DNA of 64,000 bases from assembly GCA_964436855.1 (NCBI GenBank), contig CAYTED010000003.1, positions 33,393 to 97,392 on the forward strand, given 5' to 3'. Origin of the DNA: an uncultured Bdellovibrionales bacterium. Its GTDB lineage: Bacteria; Patescibacteriota; Minisyncoccia; Moranbacterales; UBA1568. A program made the translations under genes and the position numbers. Shown piece by piece: positions 3,826 through 58,068 of this stretch. The notes beneath the pieces are model-generated. The model ran no database searches, was not told where the DNA came from, and saw only the letters and a list, made by a program, of their open reading frames with translations. The stretch's first letter is position 1. Every line of letters begins with the position of its first letter.

Positions 3826-3957
3826 AAAACAATATTAAAATTGAAAAATCAAAATGAAAAATGACAAATCAAAATTGAAAATGTATTCCGAATCTTACAT
3901 TTTACATGGTCATTTTCCTGTCTGCCGACAGGCAGGGATTTTTGAGATTTACATTTT

Positions 3958-4359
3958 TCATTTCTCAACAAGAGGCTCTTTACTCCGAGTAGCCAGAACG
4001 ATCACACATACTCCAGCCACTGTTAAGTATACATCCGCCAGATTGAAGATTGGAAACCACTCGAATACCCGAATATAATCGGTTATACAGCCAAATTGCC
4101 AGCGTTCGAAAAGATTCGAGAGGCCGCCGGAAAGAAAAAGAATAAACGGAACGATGTGCCCGTATTTCCACAGCACACAACCTCCAAGAAAAAGAAATAC
4201 ACCGCTAAAAAAAGAAAGTATGTTCGAGGGAATGTCCGTTCCAAATCCACCCAATGAATTACAGATTGAATATGGTATGAGTATCCGAGTGCTCTGTGCT
4301 ATACCAAAAAGAAAAAAGACGGCAACGATCCCTCGAAAAACCGCCTTTTTCGTATTCAT
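3958..4359 (-). CDS. lspA: Lipoprotein signal peptidase II
   Basis: Four TM segments and the FNLADVYLTVAG motif typical of LspA; start chosen at MNTKKAVF. Confidence 0.8.
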   Translation of the reverse strand: MNTKKAVFRGIVAVFFLFGIAQSTRILIPYSICNSLGGFGTDIPSNILSFFSGVFLFLGGCVLWKYGHIVPFILFLSGGLSNLFERWQFGCITDYIRVFEWFPIFNLADVYLTVAGVCVIVLATRSKEPLVEK

Positions 4360-4369
4360 ACCGCCAAGA

Positions 4370-4726
4370 TTACTCTCCGACAACACACGTTGTGTGTGTT
4401 CGTGCCGCCGGATAGGCATTCAGCCGATCAAAATCGATTTCTTTTCCGCACGACTCGCATTTTCCATATGTACCCGCCTCTACTCGAGAAAGCGCGTCGT
4501 TTACCTCACGCAATTCGTGTTCGAGTGTTACTTCAAGCGCCTTATTGTCTACATATTCTTCCACCTCGCTTGCGTTTTCATCGCGATCCGTCCCCATATC
4601 TTGATACTTCGTCTCATATTCCCCTTCTCCATCCACCGGCTTTGCAAATCGTGAAAGCTCGCCTTTTAAGCGTTCCGCTTCTCCAAGAAGTTTTTCTTTC
4701 AATTGAGCCGTTTTTGCCGCATCCAT
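4370..4726 (-). CDS. DksA/TraR family C4-type zinc-finger protein
   Basis: Coiled-coil N-terminus followed by CESCGKEIDFDRLNAYPAARTHTTC zinc-finger; start at MDAAKTAQL. Confidence 0.7.
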   Translation of the reverse strand: MDAAKTAQLKEKLLGEAERLKGELSRFAKPVDGEGEYETKYQDMGTDRDENASEVEEYVDNKALEVTLEHELREVNDALSRVEAGTYGKCESCGKEIDFDRLNAYPAARTHTTCVVGE

Positions 4727-18945: not shown

Positions 18946-20799
18946 ATGGACAAAATTCTTCGACACCTCTCGACGATTCTCCTTGTTTTCTTCCTCTTTG
19001 TGGGAATCGCGATTCTCTATCAAACCCCCGAGAAAAAACCGGTCAATATTTCTCTATCCGACCTTGTTTCGGAGATCAATAACGGCGAAATCAAACAAAT
19101 TACCGTCAAGGCAAACGATCTCTCTATCGAGAAAAAAGATGGAACAAAGGGAAAAGCCGTGAAAGAATCCGAATCCGCCATTACGGAAACTCTCAAGAAC
19201 TACAATGTCGATACGGAAAAACTGAAAGAGGTTTCGATCGTTATCGAGCAAGAATCCGGTTTTTCGTATTGGGCGGCGGTTATTCTTCCGTTTCTCCTCC
19301 CTTTCCTTCTTATCGGACTGTTTATTTGGTTTATGATGCGCCAAGCACAACGCGGCAACAACCAAGCGCTTTCATTCGGTCTTTCCAAGGCGCGCATTCT
19401 CGATCCGAAGGACAAGAAAAAACGTATCACTTTTAAAGACGTCGCCGGCGCCACCGAAGCGAAAGAAGAACTGATGGAAGTCGTAGAGTTCCTGAAACAT
19501 CCGAAAAAATTCCTCGATATGGGCGCAAAAATCCCGCGCGGCGTGCTCCTGCTCGGCCCTCCCGGCACCGGAAAAACCCTTATGTCAAAGGCGGTCGCTG
19601 GAGAAGCAGGCGTTCCCTTTTTCAATATCAGCGGCTCGGAATTTGTCGAAATGTTCGTCGGTGTGGGTGCCTCACGCGTCCGCGATCTCTTCAAACAAGC
19701 GAAGAAAAACGCGCCCGCTATCGTTTTTATCGACGAAATCGATGCCGTTGGACGACACCGCGGCGCGGGACTTGGCGGCGGACACGATGAGCGCGAACAA
19801 ACCTTGAATCAAATTCTCGTCGAAATGGACGGGTTCGAAACCGATTCAAGCGTTATTGTTATCGCCGCTACCAATCGTCCCGATGTCCTCGATCCGGCGC
19901 TTCTCCGTCCGGGACGCTTTGATCGCCGTGTTACGATGGATCTTCCGGATATCAACGAGCGGGAGCAAATCCTCTCTATTCACATTAAAGGAAAACCGAT
20001 CATCGACGGAATCAATATCCGAAATATCGCCGAACGTACCCCGGGATTTTCCGGCGCCGATCTTGCAAACCTTGTCAACGAAGCCGCCATTCTTGCCACT
20101 CGGAGAGGGAAGAAAAAAATCGAACTCATCGAACTCCTTGAGTCGATCGAAAAAGTTATCCTCGGTCCGGAACGGCGAAGTCGCGTCATCAATGAAAAAG
20201 AAAAAAGCGTCGTTGCCTATCACGAAGCGGGGCACGCGCTTGTTGCCGCATCGCTCCCGAATGCCGATCCGGTACAAAAAGTGTCTATTGTTTCCCGTGG
20301 ACATGCCGGCGGATACACGCTTGCTGTCCCAACCGAAGACAAAATGCTCCACTCAAGTTCATATTTTTCCGATGAACTCGCCACACTTCTCGGCGGGTAC
20401 GCGAGTGAGAAGCTCATCTTCGACGATACGACCACCGGTCCCTCAAACGACCTCGAGCGCGCCACCGCTATGGCACGCAATATGGTCACCCGCTATGGAA
20501 TGAGTCGCCTCGGATCCCGAACCTTCGGACACAAAGAAGAGCTTATTTTCCTCGGCAAAGAACTTCACGAAGAACGAAATTATTCCGAAAAGACCGCCGA
20601 AGCGATTGATGCCGAAGTCTCGCGGCTCGTTACCGAGGCATTCGAACGTGCGACATCCATTCTCACCGACAAGCGCACGACACTCGATACCATCGCAAAA
20701 ACCCTCCTTGAAAAAGAAACTCTTGAGAAAGATGAATTCAATGCGCTCGTTGGTATTGTTGAACCAAGCACAGCCTCGTCAGCAAAAGAAGTCATATAA
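18946..20799 (+). CDS. ftsH: ATP-dependent zinc metalloprotease FtsH
   Basis: Two N-terminal TM helices, AAA module (GPPGTGKT, second region of homology) and HEAGHAL zinc site. Confidence 0.97.
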
Positions 20800-20803
20800 C
20801 GCT

Positions 20804-21685
20804 ATGGAAAATTTTTCTTCCCCGAAGATTCCCCCGACACGGGGAACTCCGGCGCCGGAATCATTTTCTCCCAACACCATTCTCCTCCGGGCTTTTCGAT
20901 TCACCATCCATCGAAAAGACGCTTGGGTATTCGGATTTTTTCTCTCTCTTCCTACAATCACCCTTCTCCTTCTTTCAAAATCCATTTCATTTGCCGAGAA
21001 AATCACAAGCGGAACATTCAGTAGCACCACGCTCTTCCTCTTTCTCTTTCTTTCGCTATTCTTCTTTCTCGTCGGCGAAAGCGGCCTTGTCCTCTGTTAT
21101 GACCCGTCAAAACACCCCGCATCGATTCTTTCCCGAATTGCCGCACTCGGCGCGCTCGGACGTTGGTATTTTTTCTTCTTCCTTATTCTCCTCTCGCTTT
21201 TCTCGATTCTTTTCCTTCCCTCGGTTGTTTTCCCCGGTCCGGAAGGAAGTCTCGATATTCTTCGCATACTCGGTATCGTTTTTTTTCTTCCTCTTCTCGC
21301 TCTTCTTTTCCTGATCAAAAATTTCGGTGTTTTCTATCTGCTTCTTTCGCACCTCAATCTCAAAGACTCTGCACTTCAAAGTTACGAACTTTTCCTCAAA
21401 GAAAAAAGTTTTTCTTTTCTTTCATTGCTGTTCATTCTGATTGTTACCGCGCTCTTTTTCCTATTCTCTCGAATTATGTTCGATATCATCCCCTCCCCGT
21501 TGTCTCTCGCTCCATTGCCACTCCTTGCGTGTTTTGGATATATCGCGCTCTCTTTCTTCGGAAGTATTTTCATACAGTCTCTCTGGTACTTTTCTTTCGA
21601 AAAAATAGCCGGCAATCACCCGCAGGATTGGCAAAAAGAAAAAGAAATGGTACAAAAGGAAATGGCTTCCGTGGGAGAGGTGTAA
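20804..21685 (+). CDS. Hypothetical polytopic membrane protein
   Basis: ~294 aa, at least six hydrophobic helices; starts 5 nt after the ftsH stop (MENFSSPKIP). Confidence 0.5.
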   Translation: MENFSSPKIPPTRGTPAPESFSPNTILLRAFRFTIHRKDAWVFGFFLSLPTITLLLLSKSISFAEKITSGTFSSTTLFLFLFLSLFFFLVGESGLVLCYDPSKHPASILSRIAALGALGRWYFFFFLILLSLFSILFLPSVVFPGPEGSLDILRILGIVFFLPLLALLFLIKNFGVFYLLLSHLNLKDSALQSYELFLKEKSFSFLSLLFILIVTALFFLFSRIMFDIIPSPLSLAPLPLLACFGYIALSFFGSIFIQSLWYFSFEKIAGNHPQDWQKEKEMVQKEMASVGEV

Positions 21686-21989: not shown

Positions 21990-23003
21990 TCAATCTCCGT
22001 AAATCGGTTCCTTTGTCGCCGCGCGAAATTTAATCGTCGCTTCGCGTTGAATGTCCGGGAGGAATCGTGCGCCCGGCCCAAGTACTTGCGTCGCCCCATT
22101 TATGAGCGCATCGGCCTGCGCCGCGGTCGATCGCATTTCGCTCAAGATCTGGGCCTGCACCGTCCCTACGCCCTGTTGAACCAAGTTATTCATCGCCTTA
22201 TTGAGCTGCGCCGCAACAAGCGACCCGGCAAGTTCGGTCGGATTGGTCGCTCCCGCTATTATTTTGTTCGGCAAGTCTTGCGCGTTGGAATATAAGTCTT
22301 TCAGAAGAATTCCGGGTGCGGATACCTTGTTATCATCCCCGCCGACCGACGTTCCCTTGAATCCCTGATTCGCAATCGACCGCACTTCAGCAAGTTTTTT
22401 CTCCTCTTCAAGTTTCTTTTGATATACCTGCTCCATTGTCAGAGAATACCCGAGTGGATTGTTTAAAGGATTTGCCACGAGTTCACGGAATGCCCCCCAA
22501 TCACCCCGATCAATCGCATCGACTCCCCCGTAATTCTGTATGGTTACCGTTCCCGGATTGTCTCCATAAATGGTCGCTCGCGCTCGCGCCTCAAGCTGTC
22601 GCGCATAATTCCCGCCATTCCCAATACCATAATCGGTTGCGCTGATATAATTCGCCGACGATCCCATCCCTCGCGTTGTCAGTGTAAACGCATCGTTCAT
22701 ATAATCCCGTGTTCGCACTTCCGGAAGCGCGAACAATTCTTCCCGCCAATCGGTCACAAATCTCGGTCCACCACCACCTACGCCACCAATCAGTTGATTT
22801 ATCTGTTGGTTAAGTGCAGTGAACGCTGTCATTTTGAGCGCCCCAAGTTCTATTCCTTCCATTCGATGTGCGGATTGATTTGCAATAAATGTCCATATTG
22901 CAGCAGCTTGATTCGTACCCCAGCCGTCCGCACGAACCGATATCGGTAAAAGTGCCAGGATCGTCCACAAAAAAAAGATGGATTTTTTAGCAAAAGAAAT
23001 CAT
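21990..23003 (-). CDS. Hypothetical secreted protein (signal peptide, Gly/Asn/Gln-rich)
   Basis: N-terminal signal peptide MISFAKKSIFFLWTILALLPISVRA; no known domain recognised. Confidence 0.5.
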   Translation of the reverse strand: MISFAKKSIFFLWTILALLPISVRADGWGTNQAAAIWTFIANQSAHRMEGIELGALKMTAFTALNQQINQLIGGVGGGGPRFVTDWREELFALPEVRTRDYMNDAFTLTTRGMGSSANYISATDYGIGNGGNYARQLEARARATIYGDNPGTVTIQNYGGVDAIDRGDWGAFRELVANPLNNPLGYSLTMEQVYQKKLEEEKKLAEVRSIANQGFKGTSVGGDDNKVSAPGILLKDLYSNAQDLPNKIIAGATNPTELAGSLVAAQLNKAMNNLVQQGVGTVQAQILSEMRSTAAQADALINGATQVLGPGARFLPDIQREATIKFRAATKEPIYGD

Positions 23004-23011
23004 ACAAGTTT

Positions 23012-24025
23012 CTATAATTCTATTGGAACATTTGCAATTTCATATTCTGAAAGTTTTCCTTGGAAGTCTTCAACAAAAATCGAAAAGACATTCATAAATG
23101 CTTGAATTTTGGCGAGTACTGCTATACCACGAAGTGGATCGCCAGATGAATCATTAAGAAATTTTGCGTCTTCCTTGAGTTGAATGGCGTACTTTGCCAT
23201 TCGAAGTGCTTTCATATGTGTTTCTACCATAGCTTCCGGAACTTCCATTTCTCGAATTTGTTCTAACATGTGTTCTGCGTTTTTCGAAAGGTCCTCAACA
23301 TAGCCAAAATTTCCGGTAGAAAGGCTTGAAAAGGATTGATCAACAATAGATGTAGCAGTAGATTCAAGTTCCTTTATGTCTCGAAATGCCACAGGAGAAT
23401 TATTCACAAAAATATAAGCCATCGATGTCAGGTATTCCACGATATACTCCTTCTCCTTTGCCTTTCGTTCTTCCGCATCGAGTTTTTTCTCTTTCTTGGA
23501 AAGCTTTCGGATTTTTATTTCATCAATGCTTACTTCCGGCAGCACCACCTCATTATCATCCATACCATCGAGCGCTTTCGATACCGCCGCGTCCACCTGA
23601 TCGAGCGATATGTCACCCTGACCCGACTCCGTCACCAGATCCGCAACACTTTCCGAAACTTTTTTCGTGAGATTTTCTTTTGAATTATCGTTTTGCGACG
23701 AAGATTCCGCAGTCGATGTTTTTTGAATAATTCTATCCCCCGGCGCTTTCACAAGCGGATCATATCCGCCGCGCACTTCCACACCATCAGAATACCCATC
23801 TCCATCCGTATCTTTTACAAATGGATCGGTTCCATAGAGACGTTCTTCTTCATTGCTTAAACCATCACCATCACTATCTTCGAAAATATTTTTTCCGGAA
23901 AACGTATCGTCCGCCGAGACAAAAACAGTCACGGAAAAAAAGGCAAGAAGAAAAAACAAAGCTGTCGGCCGCACGCACAAGCCGAACAGCTTTTTTATAC
24001 TCTGAAAAAAAATATCACTCAACAT
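23012..24025 (-). CDS. Hypothetical secreted protein with thrombospondin type-3-like Ca-binding repeats
   Basis: Signal peptide/TM, then DSDGDGLSNEEERLYGTDPFVKDTDGDGYSDGVE (TSP3-type DxDxDG repeats) and a coiled-coil region. Confidence 0.5.
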   Translation of the reverse strand: MLSDIFFQSIKKLFGLCVRPTALFFLLAFFSVTVFVSADDTFSGKNIFEDSDGDGLSNEEERLYGTDPFVKDTDGDGYSDGVEVRGGYDPLVKAPGDRIIQKTSTAESSSQNDNSKENLTKKVSESVADLVTESGQGDISLDQVDAAVSKALDGMDDNEVVLPEVSIDEIKIRKLSKKEKKLDAEERKAKEKEYIVEYLTSMAYIFVNNSPVAFRDIKELESTATSIVDQSFSSLSTGNFGYVEDLSKNAEHMLEQIREMEVPEAMVETHMKALRMAKYAIQLKEDAKFLNDSSGDPLRGIAVLAKIQAFMNVFSIFVEDFQGKLSEYEIANVPIEL

Positions 24026-24389
24026 AATATCACTCCGGTTTTGTTTGCTTTCAGTATATCATTCTTGAAAAAAAAAGAAAAAAATCTTTTTTGAAATATC
24101 ACTTCAAGTCCACATAACTTTATAAGGCACAAGCTTCACGCGGTAGTACCAGTCTTTTATTTCCAATCTGAAACGCTCATCCGCCTTCATAATGGAAATC
24201 CATTGAATGCATTCTTGCAAAAAGGAAATCTCCAAACTCGCCCGACATACCGACGCGGGTACGTATAAAACAAGATTGAAAATAACAACTCTTAGAAATA
24301 CTCTCAATAATAAACCCTCTATAAAAAATATTAAGAAATATATTATATATTTTGTCAAGTACTTCGAGGGATAGGCTCTCTGTGAGAAT

Positions 24390-24990
24390 CAATTTGTTCC
24401 ACGTGGAACAAATTGATCTTGTAGTTTTCTTTCATAATGTTCCACGTGGAACAATCTTTTACAAAATCTTCATTGAACACAATTTATCCACATATAATTC
24501 ATTAAAAATTCGAATTTTGTTCCACGTGGAACAATTTACCTTGCCTTTATCAGATGTTCCACGTGGAACATCCACGAAAACAACGCGTTTCAGTATAAAT
24601 TTTCATATTTTAATCGTAATTTATGAATAAATTCAATAAAAGTATAACAAAAAAAAGTTCCACGTGGAACAAATTTTCAAATACTTATTTCAATAATGTT
24701 CCACGTGGAACATAAAATTGTACTTATACACTTATTATTCAGTATTATAGATAAAAAAATCATCCATGATTTCGTTTTAAGTACAGAATGTTCCACGTGG
24801 AACAATTTCATATATCTTTTTCACATACTTTTGTTCCACGTGGAACAAATTGGTGATGAAATTACATTTACACACTTGTTATACATTAAATACTAATAAT
24901 AGAGCTACTCAAAATTGTATTTTCTACAAAAATGTTCCACGTGGAACAATTTTTTGAATCTATACTGTCTCTTTGTTCCACGTGGAACAT
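24390..24990. promoter_or_regulatory. parS: Array of ten parS-like 16-bp perfect palindromes TGTTCCACGTGGAACA (centromere-like ParB-binding sites)
   Basis: GTTCCACGTGGAAC cores at 24396, 24439, 24519, 24556, 24657, 24698, 24790, 24833, 24934 and 24975. They form five pairs, 37-43 bp apart within a pair and ~123-144 bp between pairs. The sequence differs from Firmicute parS TGTTNCACGTGAAACA only by a symmetric G/C change. Confidence 0.75.
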
Positions 24991-25086
24991 TTCATTACTT
25001 TTATATTGACATAATTATAATATTATGTCTTAATTATTCGTTTGACGGAAATAGGATTCCTGAATATAGTAGAAAGGCTTTTGTTT

Positions 25087-25159
25087 GGGCCATTAGCTCA
25101 TTTGGTAGAGCACTTCCATGGCATGGAAGGGGTGACCGGTTCGAATCCGGTATGGTCCA
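25087..25159 (+). tRNA. tRNA-Ala (anticodon GGC)
   Basis: G3:U70 pair in acceptor GGGCCAT/ATGGTCC, anticodon loop ATGGCAT; CCA not encoded. Confidence 0.85.
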
Positions 25160-25186
25160 CAATATTTTTATATTTTGTCAAGTTTC

Positions 25187-25258
25187 GCCTCCATAGCTCA
25201 ATGGATAGAGCTACCCCGTCCTAAGGGGGAGATCTGGGTTCGATTCCTGGTGGGGGCA
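25187..25258 (+). tRNA. tRNA-Arg (anticodon CCT)
   Basis: Acceptor GCCTCCA/TGGGGGC, anticodon loop GTCCTAA, T-loop TTCGATT. Confidence 0.7.
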
Positions 25259-25349
25259 CAATATTTTCATCGCACCTCACAACGAAAACCTTGTCTTCTT
25301 CCAAAAAATGCGTTACACTTCGAGGCTTTGTTTATATACCAAATTCACT

Positions 25350-25691
25350 ATGCCCTCACGAAGAATCGCACGCGTCAATGAACAGGTTCGCGCCTTGTTT
25401 GCACAACTTATCGAACGAGAGCTCTCTTTGAAACAGGGGGTTATTGTTACTGTCGTGAAAGCCGATACGACGGCGGATTTACAGCATTCTAAAATTTCTC
25501 TTTCAATTTATCCGGAAGGGGAGGAGGGGTATGCGATTACCGCTGTCAAAAACCATCTTTCGGACCTGCAAAAGAAACTTCACCGGAATCTTACGATGAA
25601 AATTCGCCCCCATATCCATATTCTTTCTGATCATACCGAATCAAAAGCAAGCGAAATTGAGCTTCTTTTAAAACAAATATCCGAGGAATAA
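25350..25691 (+). CDS. rbfA: Ribosome-binding factor A
   Basis: RIARVNEQVRALFAQLIERE...VTVVKADTTADLQHSKI typical RbfA KH-like fold; start at MPSRRIARV. Confidence 0.8.
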   Translation: MPSRRIARVNEQVRALFAQLIERELSLKQGVIVTVVKADTTADLQHSKISLSIYPEGEEGYAITAVKNHLSDLQKKLHRNLTMKIRPHIHILSDHTESKASEIELLLKQISEE

Positions 25692-25707
25692 ACTTTCTTC
25701 ACGCCGT

Positions 25708-26670
25708 ATGCACCGTTTTTCTTCCGAATTCAAAAATCTTTCCTACGTCTTTGAAAAGGCCGAACGTATACTTCTCTTCGCGCACAATCGTCCCGACCCG
25801 GATTCCGTCGGATCGAATTTGGCGCTCAAATACGCGCTTGAGTTCAGTGGAAAACCGGTGGATATCGCCTGTTACGATGATTTTCCCGGATATATCTCCC
25901 CACTTTTTCCCAAAGAAACATTTCTTCATCCCGATACTATCAATCCAAGTACGTACGATGTGATTGTTGGATCCGATAGTGTCGATCGCGGATTTCATAT
26001 CTTTCGTGAAAAAATAACACATGATCCGGTCATTGCCGTGATTGATCATCATCCGAATATTTCCGTTGCCGCGGATATTTCCATTCTTGACGATGAGGCA
26101 TCTTCGGCATCCGAACTCGTGTATGATTTTTTTGTTCAATCCGGGATACCGTTTGATACGCATGCGGCAAGCGCGCTCTTGATGGGCATTCTCTTCGATA
26201 CGGGGAATTTTCAGCATACGAATACGAAACCACGGACGTTTGAAATTGGCGCCGATCTTGTCAAAAGGGGAGCAAAGCTCAAGAAAATCACCGAGACGGT
26301 CTTTACGAATCGAAAAATCGGAACGCTTCGTATCTGGGGGAAAGCGCTCCTTAAGGCGCGAATGCTCGCAGAAAACAAAATGATTGTCTCCGCGCTCACC
26401 GAGCAAGATATCAAAGAGTGTAATGCCTCGGTTGAAGAAATCAATCAGGCGGTGCCACTCCTCAACAATGTCTCCGATGCGAAATTTTCTCTCCTTTTGT
26501 TTCAGAAAGATCCCTCGACTATTCGAGGAAGTTTACGGTCGGATCAGGAAAAAAATATCGATGTTTCGAGCATTGCGAAACTTTTCGGGGGCGGGGGGCA
26601 CAAGTTTGCGAGCGGATTTGAAATTCCCGGAAGAATCGTGGAAACTGAAATGGGGTGGGAGGTAGTATAA
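25708..26670 (+). CDS. nrnA: DHH-DHHA1 phosphoesterase, NrnA-like oligoribonuclease/pAp phosphatase
   Basis: DHH motif (AVIDHHP) and C-terminal GGGGH; conserved position after rbfA. Confidence 0.8.
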   Translation: MHRFSSEFKNLSYVFEKAERILLFAHNRPDPDSVGSNLALKYALEFSGKPVDIACYDDFPGYISPLFPKETFLHPDTINPSTYDVIVGSDSVDRGFHIFREKITHDPVIAVIDHHPNISVAADISILDDEASSASELVYDFFVQSGIPFDTHAASALLMGILFDTGNFQHTNTKPRTFEIGADLVKRGAKLKKITETVFTNRKIGTLRIWGKALLKARMLAENKMIVSALTEQDIKECNASVEEINQAVPLLNNVSDAKFSLLLFQKDPSTIRGSLRSDQEKNIDVSSIAKLFGGGGHKFASGFEIPGRIVETEMGWEVV

Positions 26671-26721
26671 AAATCAAAATGAAAACATCAAAATGAAAAA
26701 TTATCCCTCTTTACGGCTCTT

Positions 26722-27309
26722 ATGACACAGAAACAAAAGCTTCTTGAAGAAATCAATACCCGATGGAAAGAGAAGTGCGCCTGCGCGCTCCGCAACACCG
26801 CGACGCAAGCAGTGCCGGGAGATGGAAACGCCGATGCCGAAATTTTGTTTATCGGAGAGGCTCCCGGACAAAAAGAAGATGAACAAGGGATTCCGTTTGT
26901 CGGTGCGGCAGGAAAATTTTTGAACGAAATGCTTCACTCCATTCACTTGAAACGAGAAGACATTTACATCACCAATGTTGTAAAGTATCGACCGCCAAAT
27001 AACCGCGATCCACTACCGGAAGAAAAAGAAGCTTGTCGGGAGTGGCTTGTGGAGCAGGTGAATTGCATTGATCCAAAACTGATCGTTCCGCTTGGTCGCC
27101 ACGCGATGGAAAACTTTCTCCCGGGAATGAAAATTTCCGACGTACACGGACAGGCGTTCCGTCGAAAATTTCCTGACATGGGCGAGCGGACTTTTTTCGT
27201 TCTCTTCCATCCTGCCGCCGCACTCTACAATGGTGGCCTCCGCGAGACGCTCATCAAAGATTTCAAGAAAATCCCAAAGGTGCTGGAGAAAATAAAAAAC
27301 GAGGCTTGA
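26722..27309 (+). CDS. Uracil-DNA glycosylase, family 4
   Basis: GEAPGQKEDEQGIPFVGAAGKFL and HPAAALYN motifs typical of family-4 UDG. Confidence 0.85.
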   Translation: MTQKQKLLEEINTRWKEKCACALRNTATQAVPGDGNADAEILFIGEAPGQKEDEQGIPFVGAAGKFLNEMLHSIHLKREDIYITNVVKYRPPNNRDPLPEEKEACREWLVEQVNCIDPKLIVPLGRHAMENFLPGMKISDVHGQAFRRKFPDMGERTFFVLFHPAAALYNGGLRETLIKDFKKIPKVLEKIKNEA

Positions 27310-27614: not shown

Positions 27615-28184
27615 TTAGTCTACGACTTCGGCCTCCAAATTGCGGCGACCGAAAGCGAAGGCTTGTTGTTTGGTTTCCATATAAATATCGAAGTGATTCC
27701 CCTTAATCGCTCCACCGCGGTCTTCACAGCGGTAGACACCCATTCCTTCGATCGCGATCTTCGCACCGAACGGGTATTCCGGCGGACAGGCGAGGGTTCG
27801 ATTTTCCTCTACCTTGAGTCCCGAAGAGGTAATTCCGTTCGATTTTCCACACTCATCTGCGGCGGCCGTATAGGCAGACGCGTTGATGATAAACTTCTCC
27901 TTCGGAAGGTTTTCCCACTTTTCAGCTTGCTTTGCCTTCCATTTTTCAAGCTTGGCATCCTCTTTGTTCGCGGGATATTGGGTGGATAACTCGTTTTCGA
28001 GCGACTTATCCACATGTTCCACACGAAAGGTCCAATCGAGAAGAAACGGGTCCGAAGAAAAAGAATACAATGCGAGCTCCGTATTGAGCGTTTCAGCCGA
28101 CTCATCTGACGCAAGCGCCGTAGATGTCAGAGAAACAACTACTACCGCAAAGAGTGCTGAACGTAATAGCTTCTGAAAAGCCAT
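27615..28184 (-). CDS. Secreted 3D-domain protein (MltA/YabE-like cell-wall binding/hydrolase domain)
   Basis: Signal peptide; C-terminal TLACPPEYPFGAKIAIEGMGVYRCEDRGGAIKGNHFDIYMET matches the 3D (Asp-Asp-Asp) domain. Confidence 0.7.
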   Translation of the reverse strand: MAFQKLLRSALFAVVVVSLTSTALASDESAETLNTELALYSFSSDPFLLDWTFRVEHVDKSLENELSTQYPANKEDAKLEKWKAKQAEKWENLPKEKFIINASAYTAAADECGKSNGITSSGLKVEENRTLACPPEYPFGAKIAIEGMGVYRCEDRGGAIKGNHFDIYMETKQQAFAFGRRNLEAEVVD

Positions 28185-30490: not shown

Positions 30491-30542
30491 ATTTGAAACG
30501 AACACCTCTCTATTATCCACACATTATCCCAAAAATCAACGG

Positions 30543-39190: not shown

Positions 39191-40333
39191 ATGAAAACAT
39201 TTTTTTTCATTTCCCTTTCGATTTTTCTTGTCGTGCTTGTTTTTTTTGGGGCATATAATTTTCTCTATCGGAACAATCCACTCGATCCGACTGTCCCCGG
39301 AAGCGATATCACCAGTTTTTCTTCGGATAATAAAGCTCCGAAAGAACCTGCCACGCAGTCGAAAATAGAACTCATCATCAATGAAAAAAGCGTCGGGCAA
39401 ACCCTTGCCGATACCGGCCGCCTTTTTTATTTCACCACCACCGGAAAGACCCTCAAATCCCTCTCTCTCGAAACAAAGGAATCGGAAACCCTGATCGACT
39501 CCCTCCCCGGAACACCGATCGAGGCAATATGGGCGAAAGGAAAAGATAAAGCCCTTCTTCTTCTTGAAAATTCCGGATCTCTTCGGTGGCATCTCGTCCG
39601 ACTCGATGACCGGTCGGTACTTCCTCTCAAAGAAAACCTGAAGTATCCCGCCTTTTCCAATCTCGGTGATCGAATTTTCTATCAATTCAACGATCCAAAA
39701 ACGGGAGATGTAACACTCAATACAGCCAACCCGGATGGCAGCAACTGGAAGACCCTCGTCGATATTCCAACCAAAAACATTTTCATCGCCGCTATCCCAA
39801 AAAGCGTGGATGTTTCGATTTGGAATCGGCCGAACGGGAATGAAACGAGTTACTTTCAAGGTATCCCCGGAGGAGGAGGCGAACTAAAAAACATCCTCAC
39901 CGGAAAATATGGCGGCGATTACCTCTGGTCTCCCAATGGGGGCAAGGCTCTCATAAGCTCCCTGAAAGAAAAAGGCGGATCAAAGATTTTCCTCTCGACT
40001 ATCAATCGAAACGGGGGGGAATTCACCAATCTCGATGTCCGAACACTCGTTTCGAAAGCAACTTGGTCAAAAGATGAAAAGACTGTCTACTATGCACTCC
40101 CCGGATCGCTTCCGGATAACATCACTCTTCCAAATGATTATTTTTCTCAAAAACTCGAAACAACCGACACGTTCTGGAAGGTAAACATTGAAACCGGTGA
40201 AAAGAGTCGTCTTGTTGAAATAAGCGATATCGGATTCGAATTCGACAGCACCAATCTTTTTCTTTCAGAAAGGGAAGACATCCTCTACTTTCTCAATCGA
40301 CGCGACGGAAAAACCTATGCGATCGAACTTTAG
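39191..40333 (+). CDS. Membrane-anchored beta-propeller (TolB/PD40-like) protein
   Basis: N-terminal TM anchor; repeated beta-strand-rich segments with WxxxG/DG turns resembling TolB-type propellers. Confidence 0.45.
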   Translation: MKTFFFISLSIFLVVLVFFGAYNFLYRNNPLDPTVPGSDITSFSSDNKAPKEPATQSKIELIINEKSVGQTLADTGRLFYFTTTGKTLKSLSLETKESETLIDSLPGTPIEAIWAKGKDKALLLLENSGSLRWHLVRLDDRSVLPLKENLKYPAFSNLGDRIFYQFNDPKTGDVTLNTANPDGSNWKTLVDIPTKNIFIAAIPKSVDVSIWNRPNGNETSYFQGIPGGGGELKNILTGKYGGDYLWSPNGGKALISSLKEKGGSKIFLSTINRNGGEFTNLDVRTLVSKATWSKDEKTVYYALPGSLPDNITLPNDYFSQKLETTDTFWKVNIETGEKSRLVEISDIGFEFDSTNLFLSEREDILYFLNRRDGKTYAIEL

Positions 40334-41556
40334 TTTTTCTTCCTGAAAAGAAAAATTCCAAGCATTCCAAACCAAAAAGTAAAGGCGAGATTGTTCCGAT
40401 AGATCGGAGTATCCACCATTCCCGAAAACAAAAGAAAGATTCCAAATCCCAAACAAACGAGAAAAAAAGCTTCATTCTCGTTTTTTTGTTCCCCCTCTAG
40501 AAAGAAGCCTTCCTTTAGAACGACAAGAAAAAGAAGTGCGATGCCAAGAAATCCTCCAATCCCAGCATCGAGCCACAGCGTAAGAAAAATGTTATGCGGG
40601 TGTGGCGCTGACCATTCGAGATACGGCGGGAAAAACCTCTGATACTCGAGATATTTCTCCGGAAAATTCCCCTGTCCAATACCGAAAATCGGATGGTCCG
40701 AGAGAATTTTTGCTGCCGATCGCCAGATCATCTCCCGAGAAGCGACCGATGACCGCCTGTCTCCGGAAACCAGACTTTGCCATTTTTCACTCCCTCCCTC
40801 AACAAAGAAAACCGTCACAAGAAAACAGATCAGTATAATGTAAAAAGCAATCGTCCTTTCTTTTGAAAGCTCTGAAGCAACATACCTCCTCAAAAGAATC
40901 CCCATTGCTCCAGCCGCCACTCCGATTATCGCCGCGTATGAGTGCGTGAGAAAAATCGTTCCCCCGAGAAAGAAGAGTGCCATCCCCAACAACAAAGAAT
41001 TCTTTTTCTGGAAAAACAGATTTCCCGCGAAAAAGAGGGGGAGTACAAGCGAAAAAGCAAGCTGATTCGGTGAATCGAACCCTCCGCGCAATCGACCGTC
41101 ATACGTTATCGCCGTATCGGAAAAAGCAATAGCCAGAAATGTTTGAAACGAGAAGAGGAGTCCGGAAAAAACAAAAGAAAGCGCCACATCGTTCATTCGC
41201 ATATTCCCTTTATAAAACCAAACGGAGAGGAGGAACACATACAAAATCGGGAATACATACCAACTTTTCAATTCGCCGTATGCAGACACCAGAATACCAT
41301 TTACGAGCGCGCTTACAAACCAACCAAGAAAGAGGAGGACAATCGACGCTCTGACAAGAAACGGAAGGAAAAGAAAGGTGCTCCACAAACCGGAAAAACC
41401 CGCCCGTCCCTCCGATACAAGAAAAAGAACGAGCGCAACAATGATCGCCATTTCCGGAATATACAGAGGCACGCCCGCAATCACCGCTCGTTCGGTGGAA
41501 AACGGGAGAAGTATCGGAAGAGAAAGAAGTATTCCGGTTATGATGGCTTTTTGCAT
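40330..41556 (-). CDS. O-antigen ligase (Wzy_C) family membrane protein
   Basis: ~11 TM helices; periplasmic loop FGIGQGNF...SAPHPHNIFLTLWLDAGIGG characteristic of WaaL/O-antigen ligase family. Confidence 0.75.
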   Translation of the reverse strand: MQKAIITGILLSLPILLPFSTERAVIAGVPLYIPEMAIIVALVLFLVSEGRAGFSGLWSTFLFLPFLVRASIVLLFLGWFVSALVNGILVSAYGELKSWYVFPILYVFLLSVWFYKGNMRMNDVALSFVFSGLLFSFQTFLAIAFSDTAITYDGRLRGGFDSPNQLAFSLVLPLFFAGNLFFQKKNSLLLGMALFFLGGTIFLTHSYAAIIGVAAGAMGILLRRYVASELSKERTIAFYIILICFLVTVFFVEGGSEKWQSLVSGDRRSSVASREMIWRSAAKILSDHPIFGIGQGNFPEKYLEYQRFFPPYLEWSAPHPHNIFLTLWLDAGIGGFLGIALLFLVVLKEGFFLEGEQKNENEAFFLVCLGFGIFLLFSGMVDTPIYRNNLAFTFWFGMLGIFLFRKKN

Positions 41557-42875
41557 AGAGATTCTTTCATTGCAACAAGAAAAAGAAGTATCGGGAGAAT
41601 ATGTACCGAAAAAAGCGCGCTATCGACTAAGGAATGAACGAAAAAAACGATACTTGCCGAAGCAATCCCCGCAAAGAGAGGGGTTCTCAACTCCTCGCCG
41701 GAGAATCGACTGGCGAACAATCCGAGAAAAAACAAAAGTCCGAATACTCCGATTTCCGCCCAAAGATCGAGATAGAGATTGTGTGCATAAAACGGGTCCC
41801 GATACGAAGCGCTCGGAAATACGGAGAGCGGGTAATTCCCGAGACCAACACCAAAAAAAGGATTTTCGGAAATAATCCCCGCGACTTCTTTCCAAATACC
41901 GATCCTCGCCGCATTTGAACCTTCTTCGAAAGAAAATACCGAAAGAAAGCGCTCGCGAATCACACCGCCGCCAAAGAAAAGAATCGCAAGAAATACCAGA
42001 ACCGCCGCGCCTTTTTTCACAGAAAATACGTCTTTCAAAAAATGCCGCCGCGCCATCGATGTCGCACAAAAGAATATTCCTCCCACCAAAAGCGCAAGAT
42101 ACCCGCCGCGAGAAAACGAAAAGAGAACCGCGGAAAAAAGAAGTATAGCGATGGAAAGAAATACAGTCTTTTTCTCGGAGAAAAAAATACCCAGCGAGAG
42201 AAATCCGGTTATCCCGAAAAAAAGTGCGGCGATGTGCGGATCGGGGAATAATCCGACCGCGCGAAGTATCGGTTTGCCAAGTATTTCCACAAAAAGACTC
42301 GGGTGTTCGGCAACCGATCTTGCAAAGCTCTCCCCAAGCCATATTGGGTATACCTCTTCCACAAGCACCCGGAAAACTCGTTCGGCAGAAAAGAAAAACT
42401 GCGCAAAAAACTGGAGAAGCGCGGCCCCGCCGGCAATTGCCGCTCCGAACACGGTTGGCTTCAGAAGAAATGAAACGCCCTTCCTTGAAAGAACATCGGA
42501 GAAAACGAAGAGAAGCGGGAACAAGCTCGCAAGAAACGCCCATTTTCGAAGAGTCCACATTGGTTCTTCACTCCAAAAAACCGAGAGAAGAGCGATACCA
42601 AGAAATCCCGACCAGAAAAAAAGAATTTTCGGACCTGGAAGCGATACCTCACCGCGCGCAAGCGATCGAATGAGCCACCATACAAAAATCCCGGCTGCCG
42701 CCACTCTCGCGAGAGAAAGATCCACCCCTTCCGATGGATTGAGGGCGAATTGAAATGGAAGCGCGAAAAGAAATATGGCGACGCATCGATCAAGCATAGA
42801 GATTTCGAAGTATGGAAAAAATGAGTGCCGAAATTCGGTGTCCGTTTTTACAATAAAACCGCTCTTGCGATTCAT
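41538..42875 (-). CDS. O-antigen ligase (Wzy_C) family membrane protein, second paralog
   Basis: FGVGLGNYPL...FYAHNLYLDLWAEIGVFG loop; polytopic membrane protein. Confidence 0.75.
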   Translation of the reverse strand: MNRKSGFIVKTDTEFRHSFFPYFEISMLDRCVAIFLFALPFQFALNPSEGVDLSLARVAAAGIFVWWLIRSLARGEVSLPGPKILFFWSGFLGIALLSVFWSEEPMWTLRKWAFLASLFPLLFVFSDVLSRKGVSFLLKPTVFGAAIAGGAALLQFFAQFFFSAERVFRVLVEEVYPIWLGESFARSVAEHPSLFVEILGKPILRAVGLFPDPHIAALFFGITGFLSLGIFFSEKKTVFLSIAILLFSAVLFSFSRGGYLALLVGGIFFCATSMARRHFLKDVFSVKKGAAVLVFLAILFFGGGVIRERFLSVFSFEEGSNAARIGIWKEVAGIISENPFFGVGLGNYPLSVFPSASYRDPFYAHNLYLDLWAEIGVFGLLFFLGLFASRFSGEELRTPLFAGIASASIVFFVHSLVDSALFSVHILPILLFLVAMKESLCKKPS

Positions 42876-43551
42876 AGTACCGGAATTTTTGTTCCCTTCT
42901 CTTTGAAAAACTCTCTCCTCCGCGGTGTTTTACCCGAAAACAATCGATTCGATCTATTTTTTTTCCGAAACGAGTCGCGCGCGCACAATAGTCCATATCC
43001 TCAAAATAGAGAAAAAATCGTTCATCGAAACCGGAGAGCGATTCAAATACGACTCTTGGCGTAAAGAGTGCCCCGCCGCTTACCCATTCAATCCGATGTG
43101 CCTGTCGATTTGAAAAAAACGGGAGTTTCGCCAAAATCGACCGCAGGAGCGACGCCCGCCTCCCGAAGCTCCCTTTTTCTTCGGTACCTTTTTCTGAAAT
43201 AAGAATCGCGCCAAGCGCACCGATATGTTTTTCTTTCAAACAAAACTCCAGCATATGGGGAAAATCCCCGGAAAGAATTTCGGTATCCGGATTGAGAAAA
43301 AAAAGAATATCTCCGCGAGCGATTTTTGCGCCGATATTCGCCCCCGCCGCAAATCCGACATTTTGAGAATGAAAAAGAATGAGAGAATGATGCGCTGAAA
43401 GCCGCTCCAAAATCAATCGTTCCGATGGATCGTTGTTGACAACAATAATCTCAGCGGGAACGCCATTCAGAGAAGCAGCGAGAGAGCGAATCGAGAGGGA
43501 AAGCACGCGGGCGCTCCTATAATTCACGTAAATGATTGAGAGGAGGGGCAT
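42790..43551 (-). CDS. Glycosyltransferase family 2
   Basis: LSIIYVNYRS...IIVVNNDPS...VGFAAGANIG...FLNPDT GT2 signature. Confidence 0.8.
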   Translation of the reverse strand: MPLLSIIYVNYRSARVLSLSIRSLAASLNGVPAEIIVVNNDPSERLILERLSAHHSLILFHSQNVGFAAGANIGAKIARGDILFFLNPDTEILSGDFPHMLEFCLKEKHIGALGAILISEKGTEEKGSFGRRASLLRSILAKLPFFSNRQAHRIEWVSGGALFTPRVVFESLSGFDERFFLYFEDMDYCARATRFGKKIDRIDCFRVKHRGGESFSKRREQKFRYYESQERFYCKNGHRISALIFSILRNLYA

Positions 43552-44401
43552 TCTCCCGAGATCGGCGCTCATACGCTTCAAATGCATGGGAAACCTGGAA
43601 CGCCTCCTTTTTCCGTGTCCCGAAAAACCAAATGATGGCTTTATTATAACGTTTTCTTAAGAAATAAGACATCCGGAACCAAATCCTCGCCCAGCCCTTC
43701 GAGTGTTTTTCAAAAAAGAGAAGCCCCGAAAGCACTAAATAAAAGATTTTTTTCGGGTTTCTCACGCTTACTTCCCGATGGAAAACCTTTGATTTTAGCT
43801 CTACAAAAAGCTTCCATCCGCCTTTTTTCAGACGGACCGACAAATCGGCATCTTCGTAATAGAGAAAAAACCGCTCATCAAACAGCCCTTCCTGCTCGAT
43901 CGCCTTTTTCCGTATAAAAAATGCGCAACCGGTCAGGTACCCCGTCTCGAAAGCATCTTTTTGAGACAACTCTCTTTGATGCATTGTCCGTATTCGAACA
44001 AAATCGATGCTTCCGCCGGCAAACCACACCTTTCCTTCCGGGAAAAGAATTATCGGGCTTGCGGCGCCGATTTTCGGGTATTTTTCAAGAAGCTCGACAA
44101 GATGCGTGAGCGAATCCGGGGCAACCGTTGCATCGTTATTGAGAAGCCAAAAAAAATCCGCACCACTTTCTTGCGCAGCGCGAATGCCCACATTCATTCC
44201 TCCGGCGAACCCGAGGTTTTGATCATTTTTGATCGTACGAACACCCGGAAATTTTTCAGTTATGCGAAAAGAATCATCGGCCGAATTATTGTCCACAACA
44301 AAAACCTCCCGATCCGTATATTTCAGAGAAAAAACGGATTGCAGGCACTGGCGTAAGCAATCCGCGCCATTGTAATTAAGAATAATAATAGCGACTTTCA
44401 T
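43517..44401 (-). CDS. Glycosyltransferase family 2
   Basis: VAIIILNYNGADCL...FVVDNNSADDS...LGFAGGMNVG GT2 signature. Confidence 0.8.
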   Translation of the reverse strand: MKVAIIILNYNGADCLRQCLQSVFSLKYTDREVFVVDNNSADDSFRITEKFPGVRTIKNDQNLGFAGGMNVGIRAAQESGADFFWLLNNDATVAPDSLTHLVELLEKYPKIGAASPIILFPEGKVWFAGGSIDFVRIRTMHQRELSQKDAFETGYLTGCAFFIRKKAIEQEGLFDERFFLYYEDADLSVRLKKGGWKLFVELKSKVFHREVSVRNPKKIFYLVLSGLLFFEKHSKGWARIWFRMSYFLRKRYNKAIIWFFGTRKKEAFQVSHAFEAYERRSRENAPPLNHLREL

Positions 44402-44416
44402 CCCCTCGAAATTCAA

Positions 44417-55726: not shown

Positions 55727-55730
55727 AAAT

Positions 55731-56618: not shown

Positions 56619-56637
56619 ATAACTAAGGGGCGTTGGA

Positions 56638-58047: not shown

Positions 58048-58068
58048 ACCCGCGTCGGTGAGCGCGAA

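What the first reader, a model, noticed from the sequence alone, without database searches (positions are those of the whole stretch)
24390..24990. Dense array of ten perfect parS-like palindromes (TGTTCCACGTGGAACA) in a ~1-kb AT-rich non-coding block
The 16-bp palindrome occurs 10 times within 600 bp. One copy extends to a 26-bp perfect palindrome, CAATTTGTTCCACGTGGAACAAATTG, at 24390-24415. The copies are organised as five pairs, 37-43 bp centre to centre, with pairs ~123-144 bp apart. The spacers are not conserved, so this is neither a tandem repeat nor a CRISPR array.

The sequence is the fully symmetric version of the Firmicute/Spo0J parS consensus TGTTNCACGTGAAACA. The block lies ~24 kb from the dnaA/dnaN origin region, consistent with an origin-proximal centromere.

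Chromosomal parS sites are usually dispersed singly within genes. A compact ten-site array in a dedicated non-coding region is more typical of plasmid centromeres or of a few bacteria with clustered parS. The regular pairing suggests cooperative ParB (or Noc-like CTPase) loading. The array sits directly upstream of a tRNA-Ala/tRNA-Arg pair that has its own TTGACA promoter, so the two may interact.
Basis: partly seen in the sequence, partly recalled or inferred. Interest (0 to 1): 0.8.

Follow-up and report, generated by a model that had tools for sequence, protein, structure and literature searches.

The report
Dense parS centromere array, relic gene
This is a tightly packed cluster of ten binding sites for the bacterial chromosome-segregation protein ParB in an ultra-small "candidate phyla radiation" bacterium; it is a known kind of centromere, but in close relatives the same array sits in frame inside an intact membrane-protein gene, and here that gene is gone while the sites remain.

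Summary
TGTTCCACGTGGAACA occurs ten times between 24395 and 24989: nine perfect copies and one with a first-base change. They form five pairs inside a 1,061-bp, 30%-GC ORF-free block about 23 kb from dnaA. There are no other copies in the 64 kb.

The 16-mer is identical to the validated P. aeruginosa parS2/parS3. It is one base from the M. xanthus consensus (22 sites in 3 kb), so dense chromosomal parS arrays are already known.

The window comes from a Moranbacteria-like Patescibacterium. The array occupies a conserved slot: TSP3 gene | array | tRNA-Ala, tRNA-Arg, rbfA, nrnA, udg. In the nearest relatives this slot holds an intact O-antigen-ligase-like (Wzy_C) ORF. That ORF carries 10-18 parS in frame, at conserved codon positions in all three reading frames. 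At least 117 orthologues show this.

In the window, and independently in L127-L129, the ORF is gone but the sites are intact. Selection therefore acts on the DNA sites.

No ParB is encoded in the window. Canonical ParBs exist in Parcubacteria-group CPR, but ParB was not shown for this genome.

Verdict: a parS centromere array, a new member of a known kind, with an unusual gene-embedded ancestry. Confidence is about 0.85.

The parts
24026..25086 (.). AT-rich (30% GC) ORF-free block between the TSP3-repeat gene (23012-24025, minus strand) and tRNA-Ala. It is the positional equivalent of the Wzy_C-like parS-carrying gene of relatives.
   Evidence: composition, no ORF; synteny with L130, L125, L204, L209, L211; no residual Wzy homology once parS is masked
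24395..24410 (.). parS copy 1, perfect. It is the centre of a 30-bp perfect palindrome at 24388-24417.
24438..24453 (.). parS copy 2, perfect; 43 bp from copy 1
24518..24533 (.). parS copy 3, perfect
24555..24570 (.). parS copy 4, perfect; 37 bp from copy 3
24656..24671 (.). parS copy 5, one mismatch (AGTTCCACGTGGAACA). The inner 14 bp are intact.
24697..24712 (.). parS copy 6, perfect; 41 bp from copy 5
24789..24804 (.). parS copy 7, perfect
24832..24847 (.). parS copy 8, perfect; 43 bp from copy 7
24933..24948 (.). parS copy 9, perfect
   Evidence: an independent contig (L213) starts inside it
24974..24989 (.). parS copy 10, perfect; 41 bp from copy 9 and 53 bp upstream of the promoter-like site of tRNA-Ala
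25042..25070 (+). Sigma-70-like promoter (TTGACG, 17 nt, TATAGT; 10 of 12 matches) just upstream of tRNA-Ala. It is a neighbour inside the likely ParB spreading zone, not part of the array.
   Evidence: This is a consensus match only; the number of promoter-like sites in the region equals the shuffle expectation.

Best explanation
The ten palindromes are the chromosomal centromere (a parS array) of a Moranbacteria-type Patescibacterium.

Shown:
- The sequence is a canonical high-affinity parS.
- It lies about 23 kb from dnaA.
- It is kept at one conserved chromosomal slot across species, while the DNA between the sites is free to change and even to lose its coding capacity.

Inferred mechanism, from established ParABS biology:
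- Dimers of a canonical ParB CTPase bind each 16-mer through their helix-turn-helix domains.
- parS binding triggers CTP-dependent closure of the ParB clamp.
- The clamps slide off and spread over the neighbouring few kilobases, which here include the tRNA-Ala/Arg, rbfA and TSP3 genes.
- Ten loading sites within 600 bp give a high local loading rate and a single compact partition complex.
- That complex is the handle for ParA-driven segregation and/or for loading SMC near the origin.

The array descends from one that sat in frame inside an O-antigen-ligase-like membrane-protein gene. In this lineage the gene decayed and the array contracted to 600 bp, but the sites were kept.
For: Identity of the sequence:
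- The 16-mer equals P. aeruginosa parS2/parS3, and it matches the P. putida and (one base off) the M. xanthus consensus.
- It is highly non-random and confined to the array.

Link to ParB in other genomes:
- In 120 other species carrying a pair of the same 16-mer, 52 have a ParB gene in the same 8-kb piece. The median distance is about 1 kb.
- In L113, 14 copies lie directly upstream of parA-parB.

Position:
- The array is origin-proximal: dnaA/dnaN at 47.9-50.8 kb and the GC-skew minimum there.

Conservation across relatives:
- Arrays of 4-18 copies occupy the same slot between the TSP3 gene and tRNA-Ala/Arg-rbfA-nrnA-udg. This holds in L125, L127-L129, L130, L204, L209 and L211, whose proteins are only 36-82% identical to the window's.
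- In L205 the array abuts the same TSP3 gene and tRNA-Ala, but other genes separate it from rbfA-nrnA-udg.
- Nearly all copies are perfect: 17 of 17 in L204, 18 of 18 in L205, 12 of 12 in L129 and 9 of 10 here. The spacers are unalignable.

Selection acts on the DNA, not a peptide:
- In the gene-embedded arrays the palindrome is read in all three frames (FHVE, VPRG, STWN) at conserved alignment columns, across proteins only 30-44% identical.
- In the window and in L127-L129 the ORF is lost and the sites persist.

A candidate binder exists in the wider clade:
- Canonical three-domain ParBs are encoded by Parcubacteria-group CPR: Portnoybacteria, Buchananbacteria, Parcubacteria and Patescibacteria group.
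- They carry the GERRLxA CTP motif and a KSR helix-turn-helix.
Against: - No ParB, ParA or SMC gene lies in the 64-kb window. A ParB HMM gave a best E-value of 1.1, and Pfam scans of about 35 ORFs found none.
- No ParB was found in 849 kb of related CPR loci. Those loci sample the same neighbourhood repeatedly.
- None of the named CPR ParBs found is labelled Moranbacteria.
- There are no binding or localisation data.
- It is unknown why a genome of roughly 1 Mb would need 10-18 sites, when one site suffices in P. aeruginosa according to the title and text of PMC4368675.
Confidence: 0.85

Rival explanations
1. Neutral relic. The block is only the decaying remnant of the Wzy_C-like gene that carries parS in relatives. 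The sites in this organism no longer do anything, for example because the working centromere is elsewhere or ParB has been lost.
For: Positional homology with intact parS-carrying ORFs in L204, L130, L125, L209 and L211. The ORF is absent here. ParB was not shown for this genome.
Against: Nine of ten 16-mers are perfect and the tenth differs only at its outermost base. Everything between them has diverged beyond detection: masked tblastn gave a best E-value of 0.38. Neutral decay would have hit the sites as well. L127-L129, which also lack the ORF, keep 10-12 perfect copies.
Confidence: 0.05
2. Operator array for another palindrome-binding regulator. A non-ParB dimeric transcription factor would recognise the CACGTG core and control the divergent TSP3 gene and the tRNA-Ala/Arg-rbfA transcription unit.
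For: The array lies between two divergently oriented transcription units. Its last copy is 53 bp from a promoter-like site. A TrmB-type helix-turn-helix regulator is encoded in the window at 59358-60179.
Against: All 16 positions, not only the core, match validated parS. In relatives the sites are spread through the body of a 460-690-codon ORF, hundreds of bp from any promoter. The same motif sits next to parB in many phyla.
Confidence: 0.05
3. Selfish or recombinogenic repeat. This would be a MITE/REP-like palindromic element that multiplies locally.
For: L014 carries three copies of a roughly 107-bp module with three sites each. L127 and L129 differ by two copies. Assemblies break in the arrays.
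Against: There are no copies anywhere else in 64 kb. In 60 orthologous genes the sites occupy the same roughly 15 alignment columns in the same frames. They are therefore inherited, not inserted.
Confidence: 0.03
4. RNA-level element. The palindromes would act as hairpins, either as bidirectional terminators between the converging or diverging units or as a structured non-coding RNA.
For: Eight terminator-like hits against 0.7 expected, because each palindrome sits in T-rich DNA.
Against: Only the tRNAs reach any Rfam threshold. In relatives the same palindromes lie inside a long ORF that must be transcribed through. Perfect two-fold symmetry of all 16 bp is what a dimeric DNA binder needs, not what a terminator needs.
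Confidence: 0.02
5. Part of a replication origin. The AT-rich block would contain a DnaA box.
For: One perfect TTATCCACA at 24484-24492 and 30% GC.
Against: There is a single box only. Seventeen boxes at one mismatch or fewer are scattered over the window without any cluster here. dnaA-dnaN and the skew minimum lie 23-25 kb away.
Confidence: 0.02

Closest known systems
Myxococcus xanthus chromosomal parS cluster (PMC3899335)
   Same: It is a dense array of near-identical sites (consensus TGTTCCACGTGGAACG) on the chromosome. It has 22 sites in about 3 kb and lies about 35 kb from oriC. That is comparable with 10 sites about 23 kb from dnaA here.
   Different: The M. xanthus cluster lies about 4 kb upstream of parA-parB. 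Here no par genes occur within 64 kb. Density here is about twice as high: one site per 60 bp against one per 140 bp. The array here descends from a gene-embedded array.
Pseudomonas aeruginosa parS1-4 cluster; parS2/parS3 (PMC4368675, PMC7022226)
   Same: The 16-mer TGTTCCACGTGGAACA is identical and is experimentally bound by ParB. The sites are origin-proximal. ParB bound at intergenic parS3/parS4 represses the adjacent genes, a precedent for effects on the neighbouring tRNA/rbfA unit.
   Different: There are four sites spread over several genes, not ten in 600 bp. One site is sufficient there.
F plasmid sopC and other plasmid centromere arrays (own knowledge: twelve 43-bp tandem repeats, each with a 16-bp inverted repeat)
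   Same: Many ParB-type binding sites lie about four helical turns apart (37-43 bp within pairs here) in a compact block.
   Different: sopC is a true tandem repeat with conserved spacers and sits next to its sopAB operon. Here the spacers are unrelated, spacing alternates short and long, and no partition genes are adjacent. The site sequence is the chromosomal parS, not a plasmid one.
Bacillus subtilis-type chromosomal parS inside coding genes, e.g. within spo0J (own knowledge)
   Same: parS sites tolerated inside ORFs, as in the Wzy_C-like genes of the window's relatives.
   Different: In B. subtilis there are single sites in different genes spread over the origin-proximal part of the chromosome. 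In Moranbacteria 10-18 sites sit in one gene at conserved codon positions. In the window itself the ORF is lost.
Acidobacteriaceae array in L113
   Same: Fourteen copies of the same 16-mer in 1.7 kb, many as pairs 35-39 bp apart.
   Different: It lies directly upstream of parA-parB in a 60%-GC genome. Whether any long ORF spans it was not examined.

Membership tests
Chromosomal parS centromere (ParABS) | 16-bp palindrome matching the chromosomal parS consensus tGTTNCACGTGNAACa | tested here: met
   Nine exact copies and one near-exact copy of TGTTCCACGTGGAACA. This is identical to the validated P. aeruginosa parS2/3.
Chromosomal parS centromere (ParABS) | Location in the origin-proximal part of the chromosome | tested here: met
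   The array ends 22.9 kb from the dnaA start. The GC-skew minimum lies at 49-50 kb.
Chromosomal parS centromere (ParABS) | A cognate ParB (ParB_N CTPase domain + HTH_ParB + dimerisation domain) encoded in the same genome | not testable with these tools
   There is none in the window. Only the window is available, and the flanks could not be extended usefully. Canonical ParBs do exist in Parcubacteria-group CPR.
Chromosomal parS centromere (ParABS) | Sites conserved by selection at the DNA level across related genomes | tested here: met
   Same slot and perfect copies in L125-L130, L204, L209 and L211; L205 keeps the TSP3 and tRNA-Ala flanks only. All three reading frames are used at conserved columns. 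The sites survive ORF loss.
Chromosomal parS centromere (ParABS) | Specific ParB binding, CTP-dependent loading and spreading from the sites | not testable with these tools
   This needs EMSA or ChIP-seq. It is inferred only.
Plasmid-type tandem-repeat centromere (sopC / iteron arrays) | Head-to-tail repeats with conserved unit length and spacer, next to the partition operon | tested here: not met
   Spacings run 43, 80, 37, 101, 41, 92, 43, 101, 41 bp with unrelated spacers. No parA/parB is adjacent. The plasmid database matches only the tRNAs.
CRISPR / TIGR-type guide arrays | Regularly spaced repeats with unique spacers of fixed length and an associated effector gene | tested here: not met
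   Spacing is irregular. The repeat is a perfect protein-type palindrome. No cas or tas gene appears among the roughly 35 window ORFs scanned. No Rfam hit was found.
oriC (DnaA-box cluster) | Cluster of DnaA boxes with an AT-rich unwinding element next to dnaA or at the skew switch | tested here: not met
   There is a single box at 24484 and no cluster. The skew minimum lies 25 kb away.
Wzy_C / O-antigen-ligase-like gene carrying the array (state seen in relatives) | Intact ORF with Wzy_C homology spanning the parS sites | tested here: not met
   In the window the longest stop-free stretch is 101 codons. No homology remains after masking parS. The feature is met in L012, L014, L130, L125, L204, L205, L209, L210 and L211.

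The most novel reading that the evidence does not exclude
In Moranbacteria the chromosome's centromere is normally housed inside one polytopic membrane-protein gene, an O-antigen-ligase-like Wzy_C family member. It consists of 10-18 parS sites kept at fixed codon positions, mostly in loops, with neighbouring sites almost never in the same reading frame (51 of 52 short spacings are not multiples of 3).

The embedding itself may be functional. It could be a 'frame lock' that makes any recombinational deletion between repeats a frameshift in the host gene, so stabilising the array. It could instead be a way to tether the centromere to the membrane through coupled transcription, translation and membrane insertion.

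The window would then be a natural experiment in which the lock was lost and the array contracted from about 1.4 kb with 17 sites to 0.6 kb with 10 sites, yet stayed functional.
Probability: 0.3. Interest if true: 0.75.

Novelty: new member of a known kind. Interest (0 to 1): 0.5.

Why it matters
Nothing appears to be published on chromosome segregation in the candidate phyla radiation. Five full-text searches for ParB/parS with CPR or Moranbacteria names, or with O-antigen ligase, found nothing relevant.

This locus marks the probable centromere of a Moranbacteria chromosome. It shows that these roughly 1-Mb genomes keep unusually many ParB loading sites. The comparison with relatives separates what selection acts on: the 16-bp DNA sites survive the death of the gene that hosts them.

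The gene-embedded arrays offer a ready set of more than 100 natural variants. These can be used to ask how many parS sites, and at what spacing, a partition complex needs. They also explain why short-read assemblies of these genomes break at this locus.

Tried and rejected
ParB in or near the window:
- A motif search, a ParB HMM built from 39 ParBs and Pfam scans found none.
- Extending the window through exact-protein look-ups gave only short Logan contigs, or no record at all.
- ParB in 849 kb of related CPR loci: none.
- A consensus-ParB protein search returned only Firmicutes- and Actinobacteria-like hits.
- A second query was a made-up ParB-like sequence biased towards low-GC, CPR-like composition. 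It did return named Parcubacteria-group ParBs, but none labelled Moranbacteria. Cluster look-ups added no names.

Other checks:
- Residual Wzy homology in the window block after masking parS: none.
- Plasmid database: only tRNA matches, so there is no sign of an integrated plasmid centromere.
- oriC reading: rejected, with one DnaA box and no cluster.
- Known RNA families: only the tRNAs.
- Terminator-like hits are a by-product of palindromes in T-rich DNA.
- The conserved hypothetical neighbours (20606-21685 and 21990-23003) were read as possible DNA binders. They are a multi-pass membrane protein and a secreted protein.
- TIGR-Tas arrays, a CPR-associated repeat type, were considered. They were rejected on spacing, on the palindrome type and on the absence of tas genes.
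- Five literature searches on CPR plus ParB/parS gave nothing relevant.

Full report
OBSERVATION

The sequence is as described, with one small correction. TGTTCCACGTGGAACA starts at 24395, 24438, 24518, 24555, 24656, 24697, 24789, 24832, 24933 and 24974. Nine copies are perfect. The copy at 24656 has A for T at its first base.

Nothing else in the 64 kb matches, even at two mismatches. The chance expectation is 0.01, and no shuffle of 100 reached 10 matches. CACGTG occurs only twice outside the array against about 13 expected. The half-site GTTCCAC occurs three times outside it.

The copies form five pairs. Within-pair spacings are 43, 37, 41, 43 and 41 bp, and pair starts are 123-144 bp apart. 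The spacers are unrelated to one another. The first copy is the centre of a 30-bp perfect palindrome at 24388-24417.

The array lies in a 1,061-bp block (24026-25086) of 30% GC in a 46% GC window. The block has no stop-free stretch over 101 codons. A short-read contig from a different run (L213) is identical to window 24940-26799, starts inside copy 9 and contains copy 10.

SURROUNDINGS AND ORGANISM

The gene to the left is a secreted TSP3-repeat protein (23012-24025, minus strand). To the right are tRNA-Ala(ggc), tRNA-Arg(cct), rbfA, an NrnA-like DHH phosphoesterase and a uracil-DNA glycosylase.

dnaA (47890-49332), dnaN and a DciA-like gene follow rnpA-yidC-jag. The cumulative GC skew turns there. 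The array is therefore about 23 kb from the origin region.

No ParB, ParA or SMC gene lies in the window.

The window belongs to a Patescibacterium of the Moranbacteria/Moraniibacteriota type (lineage). Compared with locus L204, a Candidatus Moraniibacteriota MAG, GyrA is 82% identical over the 63 residues present in the locus. FtsH is 77%, UDG 73% and S1 70% identical. Other relatives carry the same names.

WHAT THE 16-MER IS

The exact sequence is parS2/parS3 of Pseudomonas aeruginosa. It is also the P. putida site, and it is one base from the Myxococcus xanthus consensus.

I scanned one genome per bacterial species for two exact copies separated by a 15-45 bp gap. In 52 of those 120 loci, a ParB gene detected with an HMM lies in the same 8-kb piece. 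The median distance to the nearest site is about 1 kb.

Most of these loci have 2-3 copies, and a few have dense arrays. One example is an Acidobacteriaceae genome with 14 copies in 1.7 kb directly upstream of parA-parB. M. xanthus has 22 sites in 3 kb, about 4 kb from parA and about 35 kb from oriC. Close pairs and dense chromosomal arrays of this parS are therefore a known and widespread arrangement.

CONSERVATION OF THIS PARTICULAR ARRAY

I used the neighbouring UDG protein to fetch relatives from metagenomes. Exact-protein look-ups gave further relatives. The same gene order recurs in L125, L127-L129, L130, L204, L209 and L211:

TilS - FtsH - hypothetical - tRNA-Val - hypothetical - TSP3 gene | array | tRNA-Ala - tRNA-Arg - rbfA - nrnA - udg

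These loci carry 4-17 copies in the slot, although their proteins are only 36-82% identical to the window's. L205, with 18 copies, keeps the TSP3 and tRNA-Ala flanks, but other genes separate its array from rbfA-nrnA-udg. More distant relatives keep rbfA-nrnA-udg but have neither the tRNA pair nor parS at that place.

Almost every copy is perfect: 17 of 17 in L204, 18 of 18 in L205 and 12 of 12 in L129. The spacing pattern differs by species. L127 has single sites 91-135 bp apart. L130, L204 and L205 have runs at 34-49 bp. The pairing seen in the window is therefore not a conserved feature.

L127 and L129 appear to be the same species from different samples and differ by two copies. Several assemblies end inside the arrays.

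THE UNEXPECTED PART

In L130, L125, L204, L205, L209 and L211 the slot is not non-coding. It holds an intact ORF of 460-690 codons on the strand of the TSP3 gene, in 28-35% GC DNA, and that ORF contains the whole array.

The protein is an O-antigen-ligase-like (Wzy_C) polytopic membrane protein. The same gene with 4-10 sites occurs next to gyrA in L014 and L210, and also in L012 and L062.

A database search found 259 homologues. Those that carry organism names are labelled Moranbacteria, Moraniibacteriota, Minisyncoccota or Patescibacteria. Of the 120 listed, 117 contain peptides that are the three-frame translations of the palindrome: FHVE, VPRG and STWN. Typical counts are 8-19 per protein, 1,083 in all.

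In an alignment of 60 of these proteins the sites fall into about 15 conserved columns. Each column has a fixed frame, for example 54 of 60 sequences at one column. The proteins themselves are only 30-44% identical. Only 18% of the motifs fall in predicted membrane segments, which make up 45% of residues.

One DNA word kept in three different frames at orthologous places can only be explained by selection on the DNA.

The window, and separately L127-L129, lack the ORF. After masking the parS copies, no similarity to the Wzy proteins remains: the best E-value is 0.38. Because the window's nearest relatives (L204, L130) have the intact gene, the ORF-free state is derived. The host gene decayed, the array contracted from about 1.1-1.6 kb to 0.6 kb, and the sites stayed perfect.

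IS THERE A ParB?

This could not be settled for this genome.
- The window has none.
- Its flanks could not be extended usefully.
- None of the related loci held (849 kb, all from the same neighbourhood) encodes one.

A protein search with a made-up, low-GC-style ParB-like query returned many canonical ParBs. All seven that carry informative organism names come from the Patescibacteria or Parcubacteria group: Portnoybacteria (two), Buchananbacteria, Candidatus Parcubacteria and Patescibacteria group (two). They have ParB_N, HTH_ParB and ParB_C domains and the GERRLxA motif of the CTP pocket. Their recognition helix has KSR. From my own knowledge of the ParB/Noc family, KSR is the parS-type residue, whereas Noc has KSQ.

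ParB is thus common in the wider clade, but none of the named hits is labelled Moranbacteria.

MECHANISM

Shown:
- canonical parS sequence;
- origin-proximal position;
- long-term conservation of the sites, independent of coding capacity.

Inferred from established ParABS biology: ParB dimers bind each site, close as CTP-bound clamps and slide onto flanking DNA. Ten loading sites in 600 bp give a high local loading rate and one compact partition complex. That complex serves ParA-driven segregation and/or SMC loading.

The 37-43 bp within-pair distance is about four helical turns, which would place two dimers on the same face of the DNA. The same short distances (34-49 bp) dominate in relatives, and other phyla show similar values. 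The histogram for other phyla is biased by the search pattern.

Spreading ParB would cover the tRNA-Ala/Arg-rbfA unit, whose promoter-like site lies 53 bp from copy 10. Repression of genes next to intergenic parS is documented in P. aeruginosa. No conserved relation between array and promoter was seen here. The closeness results from loss of the 5' part of the former gene: in L204 the nearest site is 400 bp from tRNA-Ala.

RIVALS

- Neutral relic. This is unlikely because the sites are intact while the rest has decayed.
- Operator array for another regulator. This is unlikely because all 16 bp match parS, and in relatives the sites lie deep inside an ORF.
- Mobile repeat. There are no dispersed copies, and the site positions are orthologous.
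- RNA hairpins or terminators. Only the tRNAs pass any Rfam threshold, and in relatives the palindromes lie inside a gene that must be transcribed.
- An origin element. There is one DnaA box and no cluster.

COMPARISON AND NOVELTY

As a kind, this is a chromosomal parS cluster, like that of M. xanthus. It is a new member from a phylum where nothing on segregation appears to be published.

It fails the tests for a plasmid-type tandem centromere, a CRISPR/TIGR array and oriC. Membership in the ParABS family is met for sequence, position and conservation. It is untested for the cognate protein and for binding.

The more novel observation concerns the lineage, not the window alone: a centromere array kept inside one membrane-protein gene, at fixed codon positions. 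Neighbouring sites are almost never in the same frame, since 51 of 52 short spacings are not multiples of 3. That count is not corrected for shared ancestry. Whether the embedding has a function is open. It could lock the array against deletions, or it could tether the centromere to the membrane.

VERDICT

Confidence is about 0.85 that this is a working parS centromere. Interest is moderate for the window itself, and higher for the gene-embedded arrays of its relatives.

Noticed in passing
L204:9389-11275, L205:9980-12052, L130:6780-8309, L125:6985-8376, L014:6843-8000, L012:6192-8000, L062:724-2262; proteins P0001-P0120: A family of Wzy_C / O-antigen-ligase-like membrane proteins of Moranbacteria carries 8-19 parS sites in frame. 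The sites are read as FHVE, VPRG or STWN at about 15 conserved alignment columns. 117 of the 120 listed homologues have them.
   Followed up: yes
L012, L014, L062, L130, L204, L205, L209, L211 (arrays inside ORFs): Of 52 spacings of 70 bp or less between neighbouring parS inside intact ORFs, only one is a multiple of 3. Adjacent sites are thus almost always in different reading frames. None of the nine window spacings is a multiple of 3 either. This is not corrected for shared ancestry.
   Followed up: partly
L113:1027-2761 with parA 2813-3703 and parB 3774-4706: An Acidobacteriaceae MAG has 14 copies of the same 16-mer in 1.7 kb, many as pairs 35-39 bp apart, directly upstream of a parA-parB operon.
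   Followed up: partly
L127:7051-8139 versus L129:6783-8139; L128: What appears to be one species sampled in different metagenomes has 10, 12 and at least 8 copies. ORF-less arrays therefore vary in copy number, by steps of about 134 bp.
   Followed up: partly
L213:1-50 (= window 24940-24989); L128:1-120; L131:1-25; L103:7144-7303: Short-read and metagenome contigs repeatedly start or end inside these arrays. The locus is an assembly breakpoint in Moranbacteria genomes.
   Followed up: partly
L062 (contig CAZQLN010000002.1): This contig is labelled Bdellovibrionales. It has 34% GC, the Moranbacteria Wzy-parS gene and a TSP3 gene 50% identical to the window's. It is probably a misbinned CPR contig.
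   Followed up: partly
window 24347-24360 and 25170-25183: The 14-mer ATATTTTGTCAAGT occurs twice, just left of the array and between tRNA-Ala and tRNA-Arg. About 0.07 occurrences are expected, and 1 of 100 shuffles reached two. It may be a promoter-like or processing element.
   Followed up: partly
window 40330-41556 and 41538-42875 (minus strand); 42790-45883: Two further Wzy_C paralogues without any parS lie next to two GT2 glycosyltransferases and a polysaccharide flippase-like gene, between the array and the rnpA-yidC-jag-dnaA region.
   Followed up: partly
window 24484-24492, 28006-28014, 30513-30521: There are three perfect DnaA boxes (TTATCCACA) in the window. One lies inside the array and none lies next to dnaA. 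Only boxes with one mismatch flank dnaA, at 47788, 49344 and 49398.
   Followed up: partly
L206:10001-11506: One orthologous Wzy gene (P0071) has only three copies within one mismatch and no perfect one. P0052 has no parS-derived peptides at all. Some Moranbacteria may therefore use a variant site or keep the array elsewhere.
   Followed up: no
window 54788-58725 (minus strand): A cluster of three ATP-grasp (RimK-like / sugar-transfer-associated) genes and a 7TM_transglut membrane protein lies next to ruvC. It was not examined further.
   Followed up: no
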